Made by a program: the position numbers and the translations under genes. Below are positions 3,449 through 34,275 of a stretch of 64,000 nt of DNA, one piece after another. Under the pieces are notes generated by a model, which saw only the letters and a program-made list of their open reading frames with translations, did not search any database and had not been told where the DNA came from. Origin of the DNA: an uncultured delta proteobacterium (GTDB lineage Bacteria; Desulfobacterota; Binatia; Binatales; Binataceae); contig CAWBYV010000020.1 of assembly GCA_963793115.1 (NCBI GenBank), positions 262,124 through 326,123 of the forward strand. The letters are read 5' to 3'. Position 1 is the first letter of the stretch. The number at the start of each line of letters is the position of its first letter.

Positions 3449-3655
3449 AACTCGCGATCGCGGTCAACCGCTCTCTATAGCTATTTGCGCTCATCCTGAC
3501 CGTGCCTGGATTGCAAGCTTTTGCGGTTGGTCCTGTGCCTACATCACATAGGTATTTCTCCTTACCCATCCAGGTACTTTTTTCGCGTCACATAGGCAGA
3601 ATTCAGATTGAGCGGAACCGCCGCTTTCCTTTAGCGTGCTTTCGTAGGTACAGGC

Positions 3656-21977: not shown

Positions 21978-23091
21978 ATGGAATTTCGCGATTACTACAA
22001 GGTCCTGGGCGTCGAGCGCAGCGCCTCCGAGCAGGAGATTCGCAGCGCCTATCGCAAGCTCGCCCGCAAATTCCATCCCGATCTCAATCCCAACAACAAG
22101 GACGCCGAAGCGCGCTTCAAGGAGATCAACGAGGCCTACCAGGTTCTGAGCGACGCCGCGAAGCGCAAGAAGTACGACACCCTCGGCGCCGACTGGGAGC
22201 GCGGCGTTCCGGAAGAGGAGATGCGCCAGCGCTACGCCCGTTCCGGCGCCGGAGCACAGGGATTCGGCCCGCAGGGATTCGCCGCGGGCGGGGCCACCGA
22301 CTTCAGCGATTTCTTCGAGAGCTTTTTCGGCGGACTCGGCGGCGGGGCGCGCGGCGGGCGCGGCGCCGACGCGTTTTCCGGACATGTCCGGCGCGCGCGC
22401 CTGACCTGCACGCCGAGGTCGAGATCGCGCTCGAAGAGGCGATGTCCGGCGCGAAGCGGCGGATTCGAGCTCGCCGCGCAGGACGAATGCGAAACCTGCG
22501 GCGGCAGCGGCATGATCGCGCGTGAAGAGCGGCGCGGCAAGGCGCGCGTGATTCGTTCGGCCGAGCCTTGCTCGCGATGCGGCGGCAGCGGAATCGTCGA
22601 ATCGCGCCGGTCGCTCGAAGTCACGGTTCCTGCTGGCGCTACTGACGGGATGAAAATGCGTCTCAAAGGGCAGGGCGGGCGCGCCCCGCGTCCCGAACAG
22701 AACGGCGACCTGTATCTCACCGTCCGGCTCAAGCCCCATCGCGTGTTCAGCGTCTCGGGACGCGACCTCAGGTGCGCATTGCCGGTCTGGGACTACGAGG
22801 CGGCGCTGGGCGCGGAGGTGATCGCGCCGGCGGTAGGGGGGCGAGTCGCTCTAAAGATACCGCCCAACAGCCAGAGCGGCCGTGTGATGCGGCTCAAGGG
22901 ACGCGGCCTGCCCGGCAAGGGGCAACGGAGCCGCCGGCGATTTGATGTTCGAGCTCAAGGTGCTCGCGCCCACCGACCTGAACGACGACGAGCGCAAGCT
23001 GATGACTCAATTTGCCGAGAGCCGCCGCGCGCGATCGATCGCCGACCCGCGCGCGGAACTGCTGAAGGCGCAGGAGCTGATGAGGGAATGA
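21978..23091 (+). pseudogene. DnaJ/CbpA-class co-chaperone with a reduced zinc finger; frame broken near 22385, 22455 and 22920
   Basis: J domain (DYYKVLGV...HPDLNP), G/F region, only two CxxCxGxG motifs ([16 protein letters not shown]), C-terminal domains. Tail [22 protein letters not shown]...ELMRE lies in another frame. Confidence 0.8.
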
Positions 23092-23393
23092 CCGCGATGG
23101 CGCGCCGGATCGCCAGGACCGGACCCAGGGCGTCGAGCCGCCGCCCGACGCTGGTGAGCCGGACCGTGCTCTGCACGCTGACCGGCATCAGCGAGCGCCA
23201 ACTTACGCTCTGGGAGCGCGAGGAACTGATCGCGCCGGCGCGAATCGACGAGCTGGCCGGCCGTCGCGACCCGCTCTACGACGCCGCGTCGATGCGCCGC
23301 GTACGATTGATCCGCACGCTGGCCGAGGAACTCGACGTGAACCTGCCGGGGATCGATGTGATCCTGCGATTGCTCGACCAGTTCTCGCGCTGA
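23088..23393 (+). CDS. MerR-type HTH protein, CbpM-like chaperone modulator
   Basis: [23 protein letters not shown]...[29 protein letters not shown] overlap with the dnaJ-like stop. Confidence 0.65.
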
Positions 23394-24886: not shown

Positions 24887-26822
<1,936 letters not shown>

Positions 26823-26964
26823 TCGCAGCGAGTCTTCGCGCGCCCCGCCGGGTTGCCAGCGCGATCACGGTCACGAAAAACGAGAGCCTGACCGCTCTGA
26901 GCAAACCCGTGCGCCGACCATCCACGCTCCGCGTGGCTAGCGTGAACCACCACCTGAAAGAGCT

Positions 26965-27606
26965 TTGCTCCCGAAGCGGGGCTTCTCGGTGATCGCCAAC
27001 CGATCGATAATTCGAGAGGCAGCCGCTGTGATGGCTGCAGCCGCAGAGGCGGCCATCGAGGACTATCGTCGTGGGCTCGCTCCGCAGGAGACTTCGATCA
27101 CCGACCGGATGATCGCAAACATGCAACGCGCGATCCTCGACTTCGATAAAGATGGTATCCGCTGGAGCGGGACAACGGTACATTCTCGAACCCAAGAGCG
27201 GCGGCTTGGTGCTGACTTGGTGGGTGCTCTCGATATTGCGGTAGACGGGTACAGCGTTCAAAAAGGTTTCCTTGCACAAGCAAAAATTCTTGAACCCGGC
27301 GCGGCCATACGCGACCTCGCGGCTTTACGGCGCCAATGCCGAAATATGCTCAACACCTCTGCAGCATCGTTTGTGTTTCTGTACTCGCGGTCCGGGGTTA
27401 CGATTGTCCCGGCGGTTTCGGTAGCAGGTTCTTCCGACCCTCACATATACAACCTGCATTGGCGAGGCTTGCGCAGGTTTTATGAAGAGCATTTCGCATC
27501 GTTCATCGGAGATCCCGGCCTGGGTATCTCCGGGAGAGCCGCGATCGACGAATTGATTCGAAAGACAACTGCCCGAGTCGCGTTTCTGGTTTCCGCAACA
27601 GGCTAA
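26965..27606 (+). CDS. hypothetical protein with PD-(D/E)xK-like motif spacing (low-GC island gene A)
   Basis: E42...G-A-D84-L...L-A-Q105-A-K107. Ends 14 nt before gene B, with GGAGGGG between them. Start uncertain (TTG 26965, GTG 26989 or ATG 27031). Confidence 0.55.
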   Translation: MLPKRGFSVIANRSIIREAAAVMAAAAEAAIEDYRRGLAPQETSITDRMIANMQRAILDFDKDGIRWSGTTVHSRTQERRLGADLVGALDIAVDGYSVQKGFLAQAKILEPGAAIRDLAALRRQCRNMLNTSAASFVFLYSRSGVTIVPAVSVAGSSDPHIYNLHWRGLRRFYEEHFASFIGDPGLGISGRAAIDELIRKTTARVAFLVSATG

Positions 27607-27620
27607 GCGGAGGGGACCAC

Positions 27621-29312
27621 ATGAACATCTTCGAAGATACAAACCCACGGCAGCTCAAGGAACTGCTGGGACAAATCTACTCCAGAGATGCTGCTTTACC
27701 CGATTTTCAACGAGATTTTGTGTGGGATCCCGGCGCAACTCAGGAATTGATCAGTTCGATTGCGGCGAACTATCCAGCCGGCAGCCTGCTCAGGATTCGA
27801 AACAAGGGCAATCTGTTTGCGTGCCGGGAATTCTCCGGTGCGCCATCGTTGAACGGCCATGAACCCACTTTCCTCGTGCTTGACGGTCAGCAACGGCTGA
27901 CCTCTCTCTATCAGGCTTTCTACGGAGTGGGCGACCACCAGTATTTCATCAAATTTGGAGAGCTTGTGGGTGGCGCAGATTTCGAAGATTGTATTGTCCA
28001 TTTCCGAACAAGCTCGCGGCTCGCTGGCCAGCTCAACAATTTCGCGGTGCAGTCCAGGGATCGGATCCTGCCTCTTAGTCTCCTCAAGGACGGCTATGGC
28101 GGGTTCCTCGACTGGATGCTCAAAGTCGCGGAGACCGCCGAGAGCGATAGGGAACGGCTCAAGATTCAGAAGGATTTCAAGGCTGCAGGCGAGCAGTGGA
28201 TCAGGCCGATCGACAGCTATACCTTTCCCGTTGTGACGCTGGTCGACCGCACCAGCCCTGCTGCAGTTTGCACGATTTTTGAGACTCTTAACCGGACCGG
28301 CGTGAAACTAACTGTTTTCGAACTGCTGACGGCCCGCTTCTGGCCAAAACAGATTAAGTTGCGGGACTTGTGGGAGAAGGCAAGAAAGGACTATCCGATC
28401 ATTTCAGATTTCTGGGTCGATCCGTATTACTTGCTCCAGGTCGTCTCGCTCATCAGTCGATCCGCCCCCTCCTGCAAGCGGAGTGACGTTCTCAACCTGG
28501 AGCCTTCGGCACTGAATCAATGGTGGGAGCGCGCCGTCGCCGGGCTTGCGAAGGGCTTGGAAATTCTGCGCGAAGACTGTGGCGTACTGATACCGAATTG
28601 GCTTCCGTATGACACTCTTCTGATACCACTCGCAGGCGTGATCTCAAGGGTCGGTGTCTTGAAGGGCGCAGGCGCCGGTGCCATGCGCCAGAAGCTAGCC
28701 CAATGGTTCTGGTGCTCAACCTTCGGGCAGACCTACGACAACGCCGCAAACAGCCAAGCGGCAACCGATTTAACGGAGCTTCTTGGCTGGATCGACGGCG
28801 GGACACCACCACGCTCCGTCGCAAATTTTACCTTCAATCCGGACGTTCTCGAAAATACGACACCCCGGCAGCGAGCACAGTATCGTGCCACGATGTGCCT
28901 GATCGTGAGTCTCGGCTCACGCGACTTTCACAGCGCTGCGAAACTCGATGGCAGCGTAATTCAACAGAACGGTGTCAACGATCACCACGTCTTCCCGCAG
29001 GCTTGGCTCGCTAAGCAGGGTATATCCGGGTCGATCGTCAACTCGATCCTGAATCGCACTCTCATTGACAGTTTGACGAATAAGTCGATCAACGATCGAG
29101 CGCCTTCGAAGTACATGAGAGACGTGCGCGGTTCGCTTGGTGAAAAGAAATTCGGCGAGCTTCTAAAGTCGCACCTTCTGCCACCCGACACCGAAGGACC
29201 GCTGCTCAAGGACAACTTTCAGGAGTTCACAAAGTGGCGGAAGGAGGCGATCTGGAACGAAATCAAATCCCGCACTGGCGCCCAAGATAGACAGCGCGTG
29301 CAGACTCCATAG
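27621..29312 (+). CDS. DUF262 (ParB-like NTPase) + DUF1524 (His-Me nuclease) protein, GmrSD/BrxU-like
   Basis: N-terminal LPDFQRDFVWD and VLDGQQRLTSLY. C-terminal VNDHHVFPQAWL...NRTLIDSLTNKSINDRAPSKY. 563 aa. Sampled 60-nt lines are 43-55% GC. Confidence 0.85.
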   Translation: MNIFEDTNPRQLKELLGQIYSRDAALPDFQRDFVWDPGATQELISSIAANYPAGSLLRIRNKGNLFACREFSGAPSLNGHEPTFLVLDGQQRLTSLYQAFYGVGDHQYFIKFGELVGGADFEDCIVHFRTSSRLAGQLNNFAVQSRDRILPLSLLKDGYGGFLDWMLKVAETAESDRERLKIQKDFKAAGEQWIRPIDSYTFPVVTLVDRTSPAAVCTIFETLNRTGVKLTVFELLTARFWPKQIKLRDLWEKARKDYPIISDFWVDPYYLLQVVSLISRSAPSCKRSDVLNLEPSALNQWWERAVAGLAKGLEILREDCGVLIPNWLPYDTLLIPLAGVISRVGVLKGAGAGAMRQKLAQWFWCSTFGQTYDNAANSQAATDLTELLGWIDGGTPPRSVANFTFNPDVLENTTPRQRAQYRATMCLIVSLGSRDFHSAAKLDGSVIQQNGVNDHHVFPQAWLAKQGISGSIVNSILNRTLIDSLTNKSINDRAPSKYMRDVRGSLGEKKFGELLKSHLLPPDTEGPLLKDNFQEFTKWRKEAIWNEIKSRTGAQDRQRVQTP

Positions 29313-29563
29313 GCGCCCGAGGGACTGACTGAGGTCGCGTTTCGCGTGGGCAAGGTCAACAACGCGGCGGCCAGGGAGAAGTCCCGATCGCGCTTCGTGC
29401 TGCTCGGCTGTCTTGCTCCGACTCTGCGCGCTGCGATACCCCTATTAGTGGGGCTTGTGCGCGCGAATTGACGGGGTTGGGCTGATGGGCGTGAGCAGAG
29501 CGCAGCCGGCCCAAGCACCGTCATTCGCGAGCGTCTTGCCGCCGATGGGGACCACGGCGCTCG

Positions 29564-30286
29564 ATGCATAACTACTTCAACGTCATACCGGCGCCGCGAT
29601 GGCAGGACATTGTCGATGTCCTGATCGTGGCCTACGTTTTTTACCGAATCGCGCTCCTGATTCGGGGAACGCGCGCGGTGCAGATGGTGTTGGGGCTGGT
29701 GGTAGTCGGCGTGGCGTTCGTAGGCTCCCAGGTATTCGGACTGTTCACGCTGAACTGGCTGCTGAACAATTTCCTGGGTTCGCTGATCGTGATCCTGGTC
29801 GTGATATTCCAGGCCGATATCAGGCGCGCTCTCACCCGGGTGGGCAGCCGGCCGTTTATCGGGCTGCACACCGCGCAAACCAGCGCCGGTCACGAACTGG
29901 CTCAGGCGGCGGCCTGGCTCTCGGCCCGCAAAATCGGCGCGCTGATCGTGGTCGAGCAGGATGTCGGGCTCAGCGAGTACGTCGAGGCGGGAAAGGCGAT
30001 CCAGGCGCGGCTTTCGGCAGAGCTGCTCGAGACCATCTTCATGCCCGGTTCGCCGCTGCACGACGGCGCGGTGATCGTCGAGGGAGGCCAGATAATCGCC
30101 GCCGGATGCGTGCTACCGCTCTCGTCGGATCCGGGCTCGACACTGTCGCTCGGCACTCGCCATCGCGCCGCGATCGGTATCACGGAAGACAGCGACGCGC
30201 TCGCGATCGTGGTCTCCGAGGAAGACGGGACCATCTCGCTCGCCCGCCGCGGCGAGCTTCGGCGCAAGCTCAGCCGGCCGCTTTGA
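29564..30286 (+). CDS. cdaA: diadenylate cyclase CdaA (c-di-AMP synthase)
   Basis: Three N-terminal TM segments plus a DAC domain (GALIVVE, PLHDGAVIV, GTRHRAAIGITEDSDALAIVVSEEDGTISLA). Confidence 0.9.
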   Translation: MHNYFNVIPAPRWQDIVDVLIVAYVFYRIALLIRGTRAVQMVLGLVVVGVAFVGSQVFGLFTLNWLLNNFLGSLIVILVVIFQADIRRALTRVGSRPFIGLHTAQTSAGHELAQAAAWLSARKIGALIVVEQDVGLSEYVEAGKAIQARLSAELLETIFMPGSPLHDGAVIVEGGQIIAAGCVLPLSSDPGSTLSLGTRHRAAIGITEDSDALAIVVSEEDGTISLARRGELRRKLSRPL

Positions 30287-30408: not shown

Positions 30409-31351
30409 ATGTGGAGTGATAGGCTGCCCAACGTTGTGACCCGCAATGCGGGCTTGCGCGCGATCGCGCTGGTGCTGGCGGTCGGACTTTGGCTGTTCGT
30501 CAACGCCGGCCAGCACGAGGCGCAGATCTCGCTCGATGTGCCGGTCAGCTATCGCGGCCTGCCGCAGGACATCATGATCGTGGGTCAGCGTCCCGACTTC
30601 GTGCAGCTTCAGATCTCGGGCCCGCGCACGCTGCTTTCGCTGCTCGATCCGGGCAGGCTGGAGCTCCGGCTCGACCTCGCCGGGGTCAATCCCGGCCAGG
30701 TTTCGTTCCGGCTCAATCCGGAAATGTTCAACGTGCCACGTCAGACCAATGTGACGCAGATTTCGCCCTCGCAAATCGTGCTCGACGTGGATCGAATCGC
30801 GGCCCGCGAGATCCCGGTTCATCTCGACATCGTCGGGCCGGTGGAAAAGGGCTTCACGATCGGCTCGGTCGAGCTGACGCCGCCCGCGATCGCCGTCAGG
30901 GGACCGGCTCGCGAAGTCTCGCGGCTCCAGCGAATCGACACTGAACCCTTCGACGTGAAGGGCCTCACCGGCGAGGTCGATCGCGTGGTCTCGCTCGCGA
31001 TGTCGCCGGATCCGGTCAAGTTCTCGGCCCACGAAGTCGAAGCGCGCGTGAAGCTCGACGAGGTGCTGGGCGAGCGCGAGTTCCGCACGGTCGAGGTCAA
31101 GGTGCGCGGGCCCGATCGTAAGTACCGGCTTTACACTCGCGATGTGAACGTCACGGTGCATGGGCCGGTTCGCAAGCTCTCCAGCTTGAGTCTCGCCGGC
31201 ATGGTCTACGTGGACGCGAAGGGCGAGCAGCCGGGCACCTACGAGTTGCCGCTCCAGGTGGGAGCTGCCGGACGGCTTTCAGGTCGTGCGGGCGAGACCC
31301 GACAAGGTAAGGTTGCGCATCTTAAACTTGAAGGCAGGCATAAAGAGTTGA
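30409..31351 (+). pseudogene. cdaR: CdaA regulator CdaR (YbbR-domain protein); extra G near 31260 fuses it in-frame to glmM in the track
   Basis: N-terminal TM segment plus repeated YbbR-like beta domains. Removing one G from GTGGGAG restores [30 protein letters not shown] and TGA 31349-31351. Confidence 0.8.
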
Positions 31352-32728
31352 GTGATACACGACGCAGGCTGTTTGGTACCGATGGGGTGCGCGGGGTGGC
31401 CAACGTCGAGCCGATTACCTCGGAGACCGCGCTCAAGCTGGGCCGTGCGCTGGCCCACGTGTTCAGGAACGCCGCCGGCAGGCATCGCCGGATCCTCATC
31501 GGCAAGGACACCCGGCTTTCGGGCTACATGCTGGAAACCGCGATGGAGTCGGGTATCTGCTCGATGGGCGTGGACGTATGGCTGGTCGGCCCGCTCCCGA
31601 CTCCCGGTATCGCTTTTCTGACCAGAAGTATGCGTGCCGACGCCGGAGTCGTGATTTCCGCTTCTCACAATCCCTTCGAGTACAACGGAATCAAATTCTT
31701 CTCGCGCGATGGCTTCAAGCTCGACGACGAGACCGAGCTCGGGATCGAGGAGCTGGTGTTCGACGAGGGCAAACTGGCTCATCTGCCGGGCCGGCCCGGG
31801 CGAGATTGGCAAGGCCGCCCGAATCGACGACGCGATCGGACGCTACCTGGTGTTCCTCAAGGGCTGCGTGCCGCGCACCATAATGCTGGAGGGGCTGAAG
31901 CTGGTGATCGATTGTGCCAACGGCGCCGGCTACAAGGTCGGTCCCGACGCCCTGGAGGAGCTGGGCGCCGAGGTCGTCCGGATTGGCGCCGAGCCCGACG
32001 GCAAGAATATCAACCTCGATTGCGGCGCACTCTATCCCGGCCGCCTGGCCGAGACCGTGAAACAGACCGGTGCCAACGCCGGATTCGCGCTCGACGGCGA
32101 CGGCGACCGCGTCGTGATGGTGGACGAGCGCGGCGAGCCGATGGACGGCGACGACCTGATGGCGATCCTCGGCCTCAAGCTTGCCGCCGAAGGCAAGCTA
32201 AATTCCAACACCGTGGTTGCGACCGTGTTGAGCAATCTCGGGTTGGAGCAGGCCCTGAAATCGGCGGGCGTGCGCCTGGTGCGCACTGAGGTCGGCGACC
32301 CGGCGGTGGCGCGCGAGATGCGCAGCAACGGATACAACCTGGGCGGCGAGCAGTCGGGTCATATAATCCTGACCGACTATTCGACCACCGGCGACGGGCT
32401 TATCACGGCGCTCACGGTTCTGGCTCACATGGTCGAAACCGGCAAGCCGCTCAGCGCATTGCGCGCGATGCGCCGAGTGCCGCAAGTGCAGGAAAACGTC
32501 CTGGTGCGCGAGCGAATTCCGTTCGCCAGCATGCCCGACGTGGAACATCTGATCGCGTCGGTGGAGAAGCGCCTTGCGGCCCATGGGCGGCTGCTGGTGC
32601 GCTACTCGGGTACCGAGATGATGGCGCGCGTAATGATCGAGGGCGAAGACGCGGCCGAGATCGGCGCGCTCGCCCGCGAGATCGGCGCTGCGATCCAAAA
32701 GCGCGCGGCCTCGCATCGTGAGCCTTGA
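31348..32728 (+). pseudogene. glmM: phosphoglucosamine mutase GlmM; frame break near 31795
   Basis: TTG 31348 overlaps the restored cdaR stop. FGTDGVRG, the active-site [16 protein letters not shown], then (after the shift) [22 protein letters not shown]...FALDGDGDR...GGEQSGH. Confidence 0.9.
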
Positions 32729-32769: not shown

Positions 32770-32907
32770 ATGTCGGCCGAGCGTAGACCATCGCGGGCAC
32801 AGACGAGCGACGGCATCTCAGTGGTCGCCGTTTGCCGGTTCCAGGAAACAACCGGCGTCGGCGGGCGCATCTTTGTCATCACGGTCTGGAAGGTAATCAA
32901 GAGATGA
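32770..32907 (+). CDS. 45-aa ORF translationally coupled to the MqsA-like gene (possible mini or truncated toxin)
   Basis: MSAERRPSRAQTSDGISVVAVCRFQETTGVGGRIFVITVWKVIKR. TGA overlaps ATG 32904. The C-terminal beta-strand motif resembles the tail of DUF4258-type toxins. Weak. Confidence 0.3.
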   Translation: MSAERRPSRAQTSDGISVVAVCRFQETTGVGGRIFVITVWKVIKR

Positions 32908-33476
32908 AAGTTTCAGCGGGCAATCACAAGTGCGAGAAGTGCGGCGGAATACTCGTAACCCGCACGCTGCCCGAATATCGCAACGACGCGCTCATGGGGC
33001 TCCCGGGCGTGGTCATTCTCAACGCCGTCGAGGAAGTGCGCTGTCAGAAATGCGGCCACGTAGCGGCTACTGGTTTCTCCAATCTCGAAGGGCTGCTTGC
33101 CGCAGTCGCGGTGGCGCGGGTCACGGCGCCTCAGAAACTGAGCGGACGCGATGTGCGGTTTCTGCGCAAGACCTTGGGCTGGTTCTCCAGGGACCTCGCA
33201 TCAAAACTTGAAGTCCGCGACGAAACCGTCTCGCGATGGGAAAATGGCAAGGAACCGGTTGGACCGACCAGCGAAAAGCTCTTGCGCTTGATCGTCGCCG
33301 AATTCCTGCGCGAACAGGCTCCGGCTGTGGAGGTGAACGAGAAGCGTATCGCCTCGATGCGTATTCGGACCGTGCGCCCTGTGGCCAAGCCCGTCGAGAT
33401 GCGATTTCGCGCAGTCAACATGAAGGTTGCCCGCCGCCGCGAGCGCGTTTGGAAACAGGTGGTCAAAGCCGCTTGA
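32904..33476 (+). CDS. MqsA-family antitoxin-like protein (YgiT zinc ribbon + XRE HTH)
   Basis: CEKCGG...CQKCGH zinc ribbon, then LSGRDVRFLRKTLGWFSRDLASKLEVRDETVSRWENG HTH. Confidence 0.75.
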   Translation: MKVSAGNHKCEKCGGILVTRTLPEYRNDALMGLPGVVILNAVEEVRCQKCGHVAATGFSNLEGLLAAVAVARVTAPQKLSGRDVRFLRKTLGWFSRDLASKLEVRDETVSRWENGKEPVGPTSEKLLRLIVAEFLREQAPAVEVNEKRIASMRIRTVRPVAKPVEMRFRAVNMKVARRRERVWKQVVKAA

Positions 33477-33518
33477 GCCACCGGGCTGGCTCAGCGCCCG
33501 GTGCATCGCGGCGCGCAT

Positions 33519-33866
33519 TCACTTGGTGATGTCGAGCGTCTGCATTATCGCGTCGGCGACGCGCAGCATCGTCGCCTCATCCAGAGTGGTCAGAGGACCT
33601 TCGATGAGTCGGCGGTTGTCGATGGCGCGAATTTGATCGATCAACAGGTCAAACGTCTGTCGCAGGCGGTCAGCGGCCTTTAGCCGAACACGCAGCGGTT
33701 CGGCGTCGTCGATCAGACTGGTTGTCAACGGGATGATGATGGTCGAGGGATGGGCCGCATCGAGGAGCGCCTGGGCCTGAACGACAAGCACCGGCCGGAT
33801 CTTGCCGGGCTCCGTGCCACGTTGCGGACCAAGTTTCGCAAGCCAGATCTCGCCGCGCTTAGGCAT
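33519..33866 (-). CDS. mazF: MazF/PemK-family endoribonuclease toxin
   Basis: PKRGEIWLAKLGPQRGTEPGKIRPVLVVQ...IIIPLTT...DQIRAIDNRRL. Confidence 0.88.
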   Translation of the reverse strand: MPKRGEIWLAKLGPQRGTEPGKIRPVLVVQAQALLDAAHPSTIIIPLTTSLIDDAEPLRVRLKAADRLRQTFDLLIDQIRAIDNRRLIEGPLTTLDEATMLRVADAIMQTLDITK

Positions 33867-34095
33867 CGGGATCGCGTTCGATCCTAGCGAACTCGGCGTT
33901 CACCTTCATGCTCTCCCTGCGAACCCGGCGGGATGCGTCGGCGAGCCGGGTGGCGCGGGCCCGGGCCTCCGCCTCGCGATTCATCCTTTCGATCGCGCGG
34001 CGGATATACTCGGCTCGCGGAACGCCGAGGGCTTTCGCGCATCGGTCGCTCTCTCTCAGCAGATCCTCGGAGAGCTTCAACGAGATAGCTTCCAT
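33859..34095 (-). CDS. ribbon-helix-helix (CopG) antitoxin, MazE-functional partner
   Basis: MEAISLKLSEDLLRESDRCAKALGVPRAEYIRRAIERM RHH fold. 8-nt overlap with mazF. Confidence 0.75.
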   Translation of the reverse strand: MEAISLKLSEDLLRESDRCAKALGVPRAEYIRRAIERMNREAEARARATRLADASRRVRRESMKVNAEFARIERDPDA

Positions 34096-34275
34096 GATTA
34101 TTCCATTATAATATCCCGCTGGGATGTCTCCGACCAATATGCGGCAAAACGCATGCCCAAGCTAGGGGTCAACGTCGATCATGCTGCGACGCTGCGGCTG
34201 GTCGCGCCCACCGCCCCCCCCGCGCCGCTAGCCCCATCCGTCTGATAGAATCGATCCCGAGGGCGAATTCTCCGC

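What the first reader, a model, noticed from the sequence alone, without database searches (positions are those of the whole stretch)
26823..29563. Low-GC two-gene island between ftsH and cdaA: PD-(D/E)xK-like protein + DUF262/DUF1524 nuclease, a candidate uncharacterised defence pair
Seen in the sequence:
- The segment is visibly AT-richer than its flanks. I counted 43% and 55% GC in two 60-nt lines of gene B, against about 70% in ftsH lines.
- Gene A (26965-27606) stops 14 nt before gene B (27621-29312), with GGAGGGG between them, so the two look like one operon.
- Gene B carries DFQRDFVW and DGQQR (DUF262) plus DHHVFPQ...N...N (DUF1524 His-Me finger).

Established knowledge: DUF262-DUF1524 proteins such as GmrSD, BrxU and SspE are modification-dependent restriction or defence effectors.

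Inference:
- Gene A has E42, G-A-D84-L and L-A-Q105-A-K107. That spacing fits a restriction-endonuclease fold. From memory it also resembles the DUF1837/HamA core, which normally pairs with a helicase in Hachiman.
- I do not know of a described system that pairs such a protein with a GmrSD-like nuclease.
- The island sits between two otherwise conserved housekeeping blocks and has no integrase.
Basis: partly seen in the sequence, partly recalled or inferred. Interest (0 to 1): 0.75.

Follow-up and report, generated by a model that had tools for sequence, protein, structure and literature searches.

The report
Orphaned cargo of an Hma defence locus
The low-GC island is real, but it is not a dedicated two-gene system: it is a transplanted fragment of an Hma anti-phage locus carrying two separate "embedded" nuclease genes, a familiar GmrSD/BrxU-type restriction enzyme and a small nuclease-like protein from an unnamed family.

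Summary

Gene B is a GmrSD/BrxU-type type IV restriction enzyme. Its close relatives (60-81% identity) all sit between hmaA and hmaB of Hma systems.

Gene A more likely starts at GTG 26989 (205 aa). It belongs to an unannotated family of about 1,100 clusters at 50% identity, with no Pfam, PADLOC, NCBIfam or PHROG match. Its model has a PD-(D/E)xK-like core with conserved E42, D84 and Q105-x-K107. No link to HamA/DUF1837 was found.

Across 142 loci holding an A homologue:
- 45 lie in Hma loci, and A abuts hmaB in 36 of 40 of these.
- 20 lie in a type III-like ResIII-methylase-A-UvrD block.
- Only 1 has a DUF262 gene next to A.

The island's own flanks hold a decayed hmaA 3' end, whose TGA overlaps A's GTG, and the first ~24 codons of hmaB directly after B's stop. 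The island is therefore 'hmaA-A-B-hmaB', a fragment of an Hma locus inserted between ftsH and cdaA. A relative has an empty site, and a sister genome keeps ~103-nt flanking repeats.

Both genes are under purifying selection (dN/dS about 0.1). They are most likely two independent embedded effectors, which is a known kind.

The parts
26034..26822 (+). 3' part of ftsH (Peptidase_M41 region), the left housekeeping border
   Evidence: ORF. The L065 orthologue is annotated Peptidase_M41. It is 93.7% nt identical to L065 up to window 26844.
26855..26992 (+). Decayed 3' end of hmaA (NOV_C nuclease domain of the SNF2 helicase). It carries an internal deletion, and its frame ends at TGA 26990-26992, which overlaps the GTG start of gene A.
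   Evidence: tblastn with the Binatus HmaA C-terminus gives 33% identity over 64 columns, E 4e-6. The sister locus L065 876-1136 gives 39% over 99 aa, E 1e-11, with in-frame stops. An HmaA profile matches positions 1098-1117 in the window and 1079-1166 of 1168 in L065.
26989..27606 (+). Gene A, 205 aa from GTG 26989 (the mechanical ORF from TTG 26965 gives 213 aa). Unannotated family with a predicted PD-(D/E)xK-like nuclease fold. In TTG numbering: E42 = 27088-27090, D84 = 27214-27216, Q105 = 27277-27279, K107 = 27283-27285.
   Evidence: No Pfam, PADLOC, NCBIfam or PHROG hit. 111 homologues, and 1,117 clusters at 50% identity. Conserved residues. AF2 model: pLDDT 89.9, helix-strand-strand-strand-helix-strand core. 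Weak Foldseek matches are mostly PD-(D/E)xK nucleases. dN/dS 0.087 against L065.
27607..27620 (+). 14-nt A-B spacer holding a Shine-Dalgarno-like GGAGGGG (27609-27615)
   Evidence: Sequence.
27621..29312 (+). Gene B, 563 aa, a GmrSD/BrxU-like type IV restriction enzyme. DUF262 domain at residues 13-240, DGQQR at 27882-27896, D454-H455-H456 at 28980-28988, N478 at 29052-29054, N487 at 29079-29081.
   Evidence: Pfam GmrSD_N E 5.7e-28. PADLOC HEC-05 and PDC-M55C. The only sequence relative in the PDB is BrxU 7P9K, E 2.4e-15. AF2 model pLDDT 85; Foldseek gives BrxU E 1e-12, DndI E 1e-4, and the Cas9 HNH domain. Invariant motifs. dN/dS 0.115.
29313..29384 (+). Remnant of the first ~24 codons of hmaB (start of the DUF1156 methyltransferase), directly after B's stop
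   Evidence: The window frame reads LTEVAFRVGKVNNAAAREKS against HmaB KKLIEVALPLEAINVASAREKS. tblastn E 0.013 in the window and 2e-4 in L065. The HmaB profile matches positions 8-27 in the window and 6-27 in L065. On its own the window match is weak. Its position and strand, and the stronger L065 match, carry the argument.
29388..29491 (+). Native cdaA-upstream segment. In sister locus L065 it is present twice, as a ~103-nt direct repeat on both sides of the island. The window keeps only this downstream copy.
   Evidence: blastn L065 764-867 against window 29388-29491, 89%. L065 repeats 766-867 and 3554-3654 are 90-97% identical. A similar sequence lies upstream of cdaA in L151, which has no island.
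29564..30286 (+). cdaA (diadenylate cyclase), the right housekeeping border
   Evidence: ORF. Homologues are annotated diadenylate cyclase with the DAC domain.

Best explanation
The island (about 26845-29387) is a horizontally acquired fragment of an Hma locus. Hma is the SNF2 helicase HmaA, the DUF1156 N6-methylase HmaB and the DUF499 ATPase HmaC; it is also called a type 1 BREX-related system. The fragment consists of the last codons of hmaA, two genes that were embedded between hmaA and hmaB, and the first ~24 codons of hmaB. It landed in the ftsH-cdaA intergenic region of one Binatales lineage. The stubs are decaying, while A and B are kept by selection.

B most likely acts alone as a GmrSD/BrxU-type type IV restriction enzyme. 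An NTP-binding DUF262 domain (DGQQR) would control a C-terminal His-Me finger nuclease (DHH...N...N) that cuts modified phage DNA (inferred from the family).

A is most likely a separate small metal-dependent PD-(D/E)xK DNA nuclease (E42, D84, Q105-x-K107), of the kind found as an auxiliary effector inside helicase-methylase defence loci (inferred).

A and B are therefore two stacked, independently acting embedded effectors transcribed together, not an obligate pair.

Shown here: foreign composition, domain and fold assignments, genomic contexts of relatives, the hma remnants, the empty site, purifying selection. Inferred: nuclease activity of A, the substrate of B, independence of the two, and how the fragment was inserted.
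For: Origin:
- A remnant of the HmaA C-terminus lies upstream of A. In L065: E 1e-11, profile positions 1079-1166 of 1168, with in-frame stops. In the window: E 4e-6. Its TGA overlaps A's GTG.
- A remnant of the HmaB N-terminus begins directly after B's stop.
- L065 has ~103-nt direct repeats at exactly these junctions.
- A relative with 88% identical CdaA has ftsH and cdaA 131 nt apart with no island.
- GC and GC3 are foreign.

Gene B:
- Pfam, PADLOC, PDB sequence search and Foldseek all point to BrxU/GmrSD.
- Relatives at 81%, 80% and 60% identity lie in HmaA-B-HmaB(-HmaC) on five contigs, without A.
- GmrSD-like Hma-embedded genes gave phage defence when tested as single-gene candidates (bioRxiv 10.1101/2024.01.29.577857).

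Gene A:
- Of 142 loci, 45 are in Hma, 20 are in ResIII-methylase-A-UvrD blocks and 60 are elsewhere with no recurring partner. Only 1 has a DUF262 gene adjacent.
- Solo copies occur on plasmids of Enterobacter mori and Roseomonas mucosa.
- The fold and conserved residues fit a PD-(D/E)xK nuclease.
- Standalone PD-(D/E)xK nucleases and GmrSD are both described as auxiliary effectors in these loci (bioRxiv 10.1101/2025.10.09.681413).

Selection: dN/dS is 0.087 for A and 0.115 for B, against 0.073-0.113 for ftsH and cdaA.
Against: - The window's own remnant matches are short and weak: hmaA E 4e-6 with a 23-residue gap, hmaB E 0.013. The case rests largely on the better-preserved sister locus L065.
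- No donor with the order hmaA-A-B-hmaB was found among 142 A loci.
- No Foldseek match for A reaches E 0.001 (best 0.057), so the fold assignment rests on topology, motif placement and the enrichment of weak hits.
- A abuts the methylase gene in 36/40 Hma loci and 16/17 type III-like loci, often with overlapping stop and start codons. That looks more like an integral subunit than a free cassette.
- A and B are tightly packed in one operon, and a second, unrelated DUF262-A adjacency exists (L001).
- Independence of A and B is not tested by anything here.
Confidence: 0.6

Rival explanations
1. A is not autonomous. It is an accessory nuclease subunit of helicase-methylase systems (Hma, and the type III-like ResIII-Mod-A-UvrD block). 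It would be functionally tied to the adjacent N6-adenine methylase or to the helicase, either as the cutting component held in check by methylation or as a helicase-gated nuclease in the manner of Hachiman. In the window it would be an orphan left over from the Hma fragment. It might serve an intact Hma elsewhere in the genome, or be on its way to loss.
For: - 65 of 125 informative loci (52%) fall in just two helicase+methylase architectures.
- A directly abuts hmaB in 36/40 loci and follows the type III-like methylase in 16/17.
- A is followed by UvrD in 13/14 loci.
- Stop and start codons overlap by 4 nt.
- When further genes are embedded in the hmaA-hmaB gap, they usually lie upstream of A and A stays next to hmaB (12 loci have a gap before A, 4 have a gap after it).
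- One 'other' locus also has a C5 methylase directly downstream of A.
Against: - 60 of 125 informative loci have no recurring partner, and some neighbours are plainly housekeeping genes.
- Solo copies occur on plasmids.
- In the window and in L065, A has stayed intact with dN/dS 0.087 although hmaA and hmaB are reduced to stubs.
- No Hma gene lies elsewhere in the 64-kb window. The rest of the genome was not visible.
Confidence: 0.22
2. One reading: A and B are one two-component system. The PD-(D/E)xK protein and the GmrSD-like enzyme would depend on each other. For example, A could cut unmodified DNA and B modified DNA under shared control, or B's NTPase domain could gate A.
For: - The 14-nt spacing with a ribosome-binding site suggests co-transcription.
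- Both genes are conserved together, with low dN/dS, in two genomes.
- A second adjacency in a Planctomyces genome (L001) has the order DUF262-A, and its DUF262 protein is only 23% identical to B.
- In its structured contexts A always sits beside an NTP-dependent DNA enzyme.
Against: - Only 1 of 125 informative A loci has an adjacent DUF262 gene, and three more have one 2.9-6.7 kb away.
- B's close relatives on five contigs sit in Hma without A.
- GmrSD-like enzymes (BrxU, HEC-06) gave defence when tested as single-gene candidates.
- The window and L065 are one lineage and therefore one event.
- Both families are typical cargo of the same insertion hotspot, so chance stacking is expected.
Confidence: 0.1
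3. A has the restriction-endonuclease fold but is not a nuclease. It could be a DNA- or nucleotide-sensing or regulatory module, as proposed for inactive restriction-endonuclease domains paired with NTPases.
For: - No Foldseek match is significant.
- The metal-ligand position holds Q105, not D or E.
- A second strongly conserved block (F172, E174, H176, F180, G182, D183) lies outside the canonical motif.
- The literature reports inactive restriction-endonuclease domains acting as sensors in these systems.
Against: - The D...QxK variant occurs in active enzymes. From my own memory, not tested here, MspJI and Mrr-type enzymes use it. MspJI and AspBHI are the top, non-significant, structural matches.
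- E42, D84, Q105 and K107 are invariant or nearly so across 54 sequences, which is unlike degenerate inactive domains.
Confidence: 0.1

Closest known systems
BrxU / GmrSD-family type IV restriction enzymes (PDB 7P9K; PADLOC HEC-05 and HEC-06)
   Same: Gene B has an N-terminal DUF262 domain with DGQQR, a helical linker and a C-terminal His-Me finger (DHH...N...N). BrxU is its only sequence relative in the PDB (E 2.4e-15) and its top Foldseek match (E 1e-12). Its close relatives are embedded between hmaA and hmaB, as reported for HEC-05/06.
   Different: - Only 15-16% identical to BrxU in the structural alignment.
- The PADLOC HEC-05 model matches only residues 8-102.
- Pfam GmrSD_C is below threshold.
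- B belongs to a large, separate ~567-aa subfamily whose best 120 of 5,354 hits are 55-61% identical.
- Here it lies outside any intact host system.
- Its substrate is unknown.
Hma system (HmaABC; DUF499-centred type 1 BREX-related system) with embedded or 'backup' effector genes
   Same: Relatives of both A and B occupy the hmaA-hmaB junction in the same orientation. The island keeps the hmaA 3' end and the hmaB 5' end at its borders. Standalone PD-(D/E)xK nucleases and GmrSD enzymes are both listed as auxiliary effectors of these loci.
   Different: The window has no functional hmaA, hmaB or hmaC. Only the cargo survives, at an ectopic housekeeping site. No PADLOC model matches the A family.
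PD-(D/E)xK restriction-endonuclease-fold nucleases with a D...QxK site (endonuclease domains of MspJI and AspBHI; Hjc and RecU resolvases)
   Same: Gene A's model has the helix-strand-strand-strand-helix-strand core. D84 sits at the start of the second strand, Q105-x-K107 on the third, and E42 on the first core helix. These enzymes are the best, though weak, structural matches.
   Different: No significant sequence or structure match exists (best Foldseek E 0.057, TM about 0.3). A has an extra long N-terminal helix and a conserved C-terminal block of its own. Activity is untested.
Hachiman HamA (DUF1837) with the HamB helicase
   Same: Both are small nuclease-fold proteins found next to a helicase. 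In 20 loci A is followed by a UvrD-type helicase.
   Different: None of 54 members matches DUF1837. No HamA structure appears among the Foldseek matches. The partner helicase, where present, is UvrD-type or SNF2, not the Ski2-like HamB. There is no helicase in the window.

Membership tests
GmrSD/BrxU family (gene B) | N-terminal DUF262 (ParB-like NTPase) domain with the DGQQR motif | tested here: met
   Pfam PF03235 E 5.7e-28, 98.8 bits against a cut-off of 33.2. D88-G-Q-Q-R92 is invariant in 25-30 homologues.
GmrSD/BrxU family (gene B) | C-terminal DUF1524 His-Me finger nuclease with the (D/E)H...N...N signature | tested here: met
   - Pfam PF07510 scores only E 0.17, below its cut-off.
- H455, H456, N478 and N487 are invariant.
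- The profile aligns DHHIFP with BrxU DHIYP.
- The model matches BrxU along its full length (E 1e-12) and Cas9 HNH domains (probability 1.0, target-normalised TM 0.48).
- The feature is met by motif and predicted structure, not by the Pfam model.
GmrSD/BrxU family (gene B) | Modification-dependent, NTP-regulated DNA cleavage | not testable with these tools
   Needs biochemistry or phage assays.
PADLOC PDC-M55 (three-gene candidate: ABC ATPase, hypothetical protein, DUF262 protein) | A DUF262 protein together with the ABC ATPase and the middle gene | tested here: not met
   B matches PDC-M55C over residues 12-395. Gene A matches no PADLOC model, and there is no ABC ATPase in the island. Cassette composition comes from the paper's supplement.
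Hachiman HamA / DUF1837 (gene A) | Match to Pfam DUF1837 | tested here: not met
   Gene A has no hit at E <= 1. None of 54 family members hits it at E <= 0.1.
Hachiman HamA / DUF1837 (gene A) | Adjacent HamB (Ski2-like helicase) | tested here: not met
   The window neighbour is a DUF262 protein. In relatives the neighbours are SNF2 (HmaA) or UvrD-type helicases.
Hachiman HamA / DUF1837 (gene A) | Structural similarity to solved HamA | tested here: not met
   No Hachiman entry appears among the 50 listed Foldseek matches in the PDB, and no match at all reaches E <= 0.001.
PD-(D/E)xK nuclease superfamily (gene A) | Helix-strand-strand-strand-helix-strand core, with an acidic residue at the start of the second strand and (D/E/Q)xK on the third | tested here: met
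   AF2 model (pLDDT 89.9): helix 42-57, strands 65-73, 85-93 and 96-108, helix 118-131, strand 135-141. D84, Q105 and K107 are invariant or nearly so, and E42 lies on the first core helix.
PD-(D/E)xK nuclease superfamily (gene A) | Significant sequence or structure similarity to an established member | tested here: inconclusive
   The best Foldseek E-values are 0.057 (MspJI) and 0.096 (a phage RecU). The weak matches are dominated by PD-(D/E)xK nucleases, but none is significant. The profile search against PDB sequences found nothing relevant. There is no relation to HmaA's NOV_C domain.
PD-(D/E)xK nuclease superfamily (gene A) | Metal-dependent nuclease activity | not testable with these tools
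   Needs purified protein.
Hma-embedded defence genes (both genes) | Located between hmaA and hmaB/hmaC, in the same orientation | tested here: met
   Relatives: A in 45 of 125 informative loci, B's close relatives on 5 of 5 contigs. In the window only remnants of hmaA and hmaB flank the pair, so the feature is met historically and not as a present-day intact context.
   Adjacent in 1 of 125 informative A loci besides the window lineage. A is absent from all five contigs examined for B's relatives.

The most novel reading that the evidence does not exclude
The most novel reading not excluded concerns gene A rather than the pair.

The A family (about 1,100 clusters, absent from Pfam and PADLOC) could be a new, widespread restriction-type nuclease that has been recruited repeatedly next to N6-adenine methylases. 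It occurs in two unrelated helicase-methylase systems, Hma and a type III-like ResIII-Mod-A-UvrD block. There it could be the DNA-cutting component, or a methylation-checked backup.

In this Binatales lineage it would then have been retained together with a type IV enzyme. One gene would cover unmodified phage DNA and the other modified phage DNA, so that phages cannot escape simply by modifying their DNA.

The hma stubs on the island would also be the first direct trace that embedded cassettes travel with pieces of the conserved hmaA and hmaB ends, that is, by flank-homology exchange.
Probability: 0.15. Interest if true: 0.6.

Novelty: new member of a known kind. Interest (0 to 1): 0.4.

Why it matters
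- It turns an apparently new two-gene system into an understood object. These are two auxiliary nuclease genes of the kind known to be embedded in Hma (BREX-related) loci, caught after relocating without their host system.
- It flags gene A's family as a sizeable, unannotated defence candidate that current tools (Pfam, PADLOC, NCBIfam, PHROGs) miss. The family shows a striking and consistent adjacency to methylase genes, and it has cultured, testable representatives on Enterobacter and Roseomonas plasmids.
- The hmaA and hmaB stubs and the flanking repeats give a rare molecular trace of how embedded defence cassettes move. Payne et al. describe the biological significance of embedding as still unexplored.
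- Purifying selection on both genes after loss of Hma suggests that embedded effectors can work without the system they were embedded in.

Tried and rejected
- HamA/DUF1837 identity for A. No Pfam hit for A or for any of 54 relatives, and no Hachiman structure among the Foldseek matches. Rejected.
- A as a detached copy of HmaA's own NOV_C nuclease domain. hhalign probability 0.05%. Rejected.
- A as a member of any PADLOC, NCBIfam or PHROG family. No hits.
- PDC-M55 membership for the pair. That candidate is an ABC ATPase, a hypothetical protein and a DUF262 protein. The composition does not match.
- A conserved partner for A in the 60 'other' loci. All-against-all clustering of neighbours found only duplicates of the same locus. 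Pfam on 20 such neighbours gave a mixture:
  - OLD-type ATPase, SIR2, RelA/SpoT, TIR, Mrr, a C5 methylase and TPR proteins;
  - plain housekeeping genes.
- Classical mobile-element signatures.
  - No integrase among the ORFs and called genes around the island, and no tRNA.
  - No Rfam match.
  - No meaningful direct or inverted repeats around the island in the window itself.
  - No more promoter-like or terminator-like sites than in shuffled sequence.
  - The flanking repeat is visible only in the sister locus L065.
- Other Hma genes in the 64-kb window. None found.
- A donor locus with the order hmaA-A-B-hmaB. Not found among 142 A loci.
It was redone with alignment A3.


Full report
**1. The observation**

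Two + strand ORFs lie at 26965-27606 and 27621-29312. A's TAA stop is 14 nt before B's ATG, with GGAGGGG in between.

The pair is 55.6% GC against 63.9% for the window and 64.7% for each flank. It is the lowest of 1,234 same-size sliding windows. Third-position GC is 0.57 and 0.65, against 0.82-0.87 in cdaA and ftsH. The compositional island is real and far from chance.

They are conserved in homologues.

**2. Gene B**

- Pfam gives GmrSD_N at E 5.7e-28. GmrSD_C reaches only E 0.17.
- PADLOC's best matches are HEC-05 (N-terminus only) and PDC-M55C.
- A profile of the family finds one sequence relative in the PDB, BrxU 7P9K, at E 2.4e-15. It aligns DHHIFP with BrxU's DHIYP.
- The AF2 model (pLDDT 85) matches BrxU along its full length (E 1e-12) and DndI (E 1e-4). 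Its C-terminal domain matches Cas9 HNH domains.
- D88-G-Q-Q-R92, H455, H456, N478 and N487 are invariant.

B is therefore a GmrSD/BrxU-type enzyme. It belongs to a very large subfamily of about 567 aa: 5,354 hits, of which the best 120 are 55-61% identical apart from four closer ones.

**3. Gene A**

A has no hit in Pfam, PADLOC, NCBIfam or PHROGs. None of 54 relatives hits any relevant Pfam family.

The family is nevertheless real and sizeable. A word-indexed search found 111 homologues. An exhaustive profile search found 1,117 clusters at 50% identity; the 150 listed range from 119 to 319 aa, most about 200-260 aa.

Invariant or nearly invariant residues include E42, E78, G82-A83-D84, K100-G-F-L-A-Q105-A-K107, Q124 and a block at F172-D183.

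The AF2 model is confident (pLDDT 89.9, pTM 0.88). Its order of elements is helix 42-57, strands 65-73, 85-93 and 96-108, helix 118-131, strand 135-141. That is the restriction-endonuclease core. D84 sits at the start of the second strand and Q105-x-K107 on the third, facing it across the hairpin.

No Foldseek match in the PDB or BFVD libraries reaches E 0.001. The weak matches are dominated by MspJI, AspBHI, HincII, Hjc, RecU and NucC. I read A as a divergent PD-(D/E)xK protein that is probably active. The specific HamA/DUF1837 resemblance is not supported.

**4. Where the relatives live**

I fetched 62 loci from species-representative genomes and 80 from metagenomes. I scanned them with profiles built from the recurrent neighbours.

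| Context of the A homologue | Loci (of 142) |
|---|---|
| Hma: HmaA - A - HmaB - HmaC | 45 |
| ResIII helicase - type III-like methylase - A - UvrD-type helicase | 20 |
| Elsewhere, no recurrent partner | 60 |
| Flanks too short to judge | 17 |

The Hma neighbours were named by PADLOC with E-values of 0. The lack of a recurrent partner in the 60 'other' loci comes.

A abuts hmaB in 36 of 40 Hma loci. It follows the type III-like methylase in 16 of 17 loci and is followed by UvrD in 13 of 14. Stop and start codons often overlap by 4 nt.

A DUF262 gene lies next to A in only one locus, L001 from a Planctomyces genome. There the order is reversed and the DUF262 protein is only 23% identical to B. 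Three more loci have a DUF262 gene 2.9-6.7 kb away.

In the other direction, B's closest relatives (81%, 80% and 60% identical) all lie in HmaA-B-HmaB(-HmaC) without A, on five contigs.

**5. The island is a piece of an Hma locus**

A second Binatales genome (L065) has the same order, ftsH-A-B-cdaA, at 91-96% nucleotide identity.

Upstream of A:
- L065 encodes a decayed copy of the last ~90 residues of HmaA, including the RFIEVKG nuclease motif. It is 39% identical over 99 aa (E 1e-11), matches profile positions 1079-1166 of 1168, and has in-frame stops and a frameshift.
- The window keeps a shorter, internally deleted version (E 4e-6).
- This remnant frame ends with TGA 26990-26992, overlapping GTG 26989.
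- That is the same overlapping stop-start junction seen between hmaA and A in intact loci, and it fixes A's start.

Downstream of B:
- Directly after B's stop, both genomes encode the first ~24 residues of HmaB.
- L065 reads KKLIEVAFRVSKVNNAAARERS and the window reads LTEVAFRVGKVNNAAAREKS.

At the junctions:
- In L065 the fragment is bracketed by ~103-nt direct repeats of the native cdaA-upstream sequence. The window has lost the upstream copy.
- A relative whose CdaA is 88% identical has ftsH and cdaA only 131 nt apart.
- Another relative (85%) has neither A nor B.

The island is thus 'hmaA-A-B-hmaB', inserted in one lineage. How it got there is inference. One route that would give such long repeats is single-crossover integration of a circular fragment carrying the repeat.

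**6. Are the genes still in use?**

Between the window and L065:

| Gene | dN/dS |
|---|---|
| A | 0.087 (19.7 synonymous, 5.3 non-synonymous differences) |
| B | 0.115 |
| ftsH | 0.073 |
| cdaA | 0.113 |

The hmaA stub, by contrast, carries stops. Both cargo genes are maintained without Hma.

**7. Mechanism**

I commit to the following reading.

- B works alone as a type IV, modification-dependent restriction enzyme. This follows the behaviour of BrxU and HEC-06, which gave defence as single-gene candidates and lose it when the DGQQR or His-Me motifs are mutated (bioRxiv 10.1101/2024.01.29.577857).
- A is a separate small PD-(D/E)xK nuclease of the 'auxiliary effector' class described for Hma and BREX-related loci (bioRxiv 10.1101/2025.10.09.681413).
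- The strongest rival is that A is an integral partner of the neighbouring methylase or helicase, given its fixed position next to methylase genes. Solo copies, the 60 unpartnered loci and selection in the absence of Hma argue against an obligate dependence.

**8. Comparison with what is known, and novelty**

The hmaA-hmaB junction is a documented insertion hotspot, and GmrSD-like genes are typical cargo there (PMC8565338; PMC11232893). B is a new member of a known family.

A belongs to a family that has no entry in Pfam or in the three other protein-family libraries searched. Its class, a standalone restriction-endonuclease-fold gene embedded in these loci, is already described.

Two things are new here:
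- the A family's tight adjacency to methylase genes in two unrelated systems;
- the relocated cargo fragment that still carries hma stubs.

Overall this is a new member of a known kind, of moderate interest.

Noticed in passing
window 24887-26822 (ftsH), 30409-32728 (ybbR-glmM), 21978-23393 (dnaJ/cbpA-like plus MerR-like): Several housekeeping genes look frameshifted. ftsH is split into ORFs 24887-26134 and 26034-26822. glmM is split, and its 5' part is fused in frame to ybbR. The same genes are intact in L065 and L151. This looks like indel errors of a long-read assembly rather than real pseudogenes. A and B are intact despite this.
   Followed up: partly
window 33519-34137 (- strand): A MazF/PemK-like toxin (33519-33866, Pfam E 8e-24) with a ribbon-helix-helix/CopG-type antitoxin (33859-34137). 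The window segment from about 33477 to 34219 has no counterpart in sister locus L065, so this is a second small lineage-specific insertion near the island.
   Followed up: partly
window 32832-33476 (+ strand): A 214-aa zinc-ribbon plus HTH protein with weak MqsA-antitoxin similarity. In L065 it is preceded by a DUF4258 gene. This is probably another small toxin-antitoxin-like module, directly downstream of glmM.
   Followed up: no
L007, L010, L015, L019, L023-L025, L035, L091, L097, L106, L129 and others: A recurrent four-gene block: ResIII helicase (~1,025 aa), type III-like N6/N4 methylase (~940 aa, PADLOC MTase_III), the A homologue, and a UvrD-type helicase (~690 aa, closest PADLOC model 'NERD+UvrD'). 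The ResIII protein has no PADLOC match. L035 and L106 also carry a DUF262 gene in the block. As far as I checked, the block as a whole is not a named system.
   Followed up: partly
L001 3139-5349: In the only other locus with a DUF262 gene next to an A homologue (Planctomyces), A is followed by a 736-aa protein with no Pfam, PADLOC or PHROG match.
   Followed up: partly
window island against flanks, compared with L065: Synonymous divergence between the two Binatales genomes is lower inside the island (dS 0.09-0.14) than in the flanking ftsH, cdaA and ybbR (0.17-0.25). This could reflect different codon usage, or later exchange of the island between the lineages.
   Followed up: no
L002 13750-15108; L005 and L063 HmaC: The HmaC proteins here carry an N-terminal HEPN (Swt1-like) domain. 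One Hma locus (L002) also has an embedded gene combining an HTH, a histidine-kinase-like ATPase, a STAS-like DUF4325 and a nucleotidyltransferase domain (PADLOC PDC-S09), between hmaB and hmaC.
   Followed up: no
L151 5301-5900: In one island-free relative, a 199-aa ORF with no Pfam hit fills the ftsH-cdaA gap. It is hydrophobic and arginine-rich. It is unrelated to A or B and may be a spurious call.
   Followed up: partly
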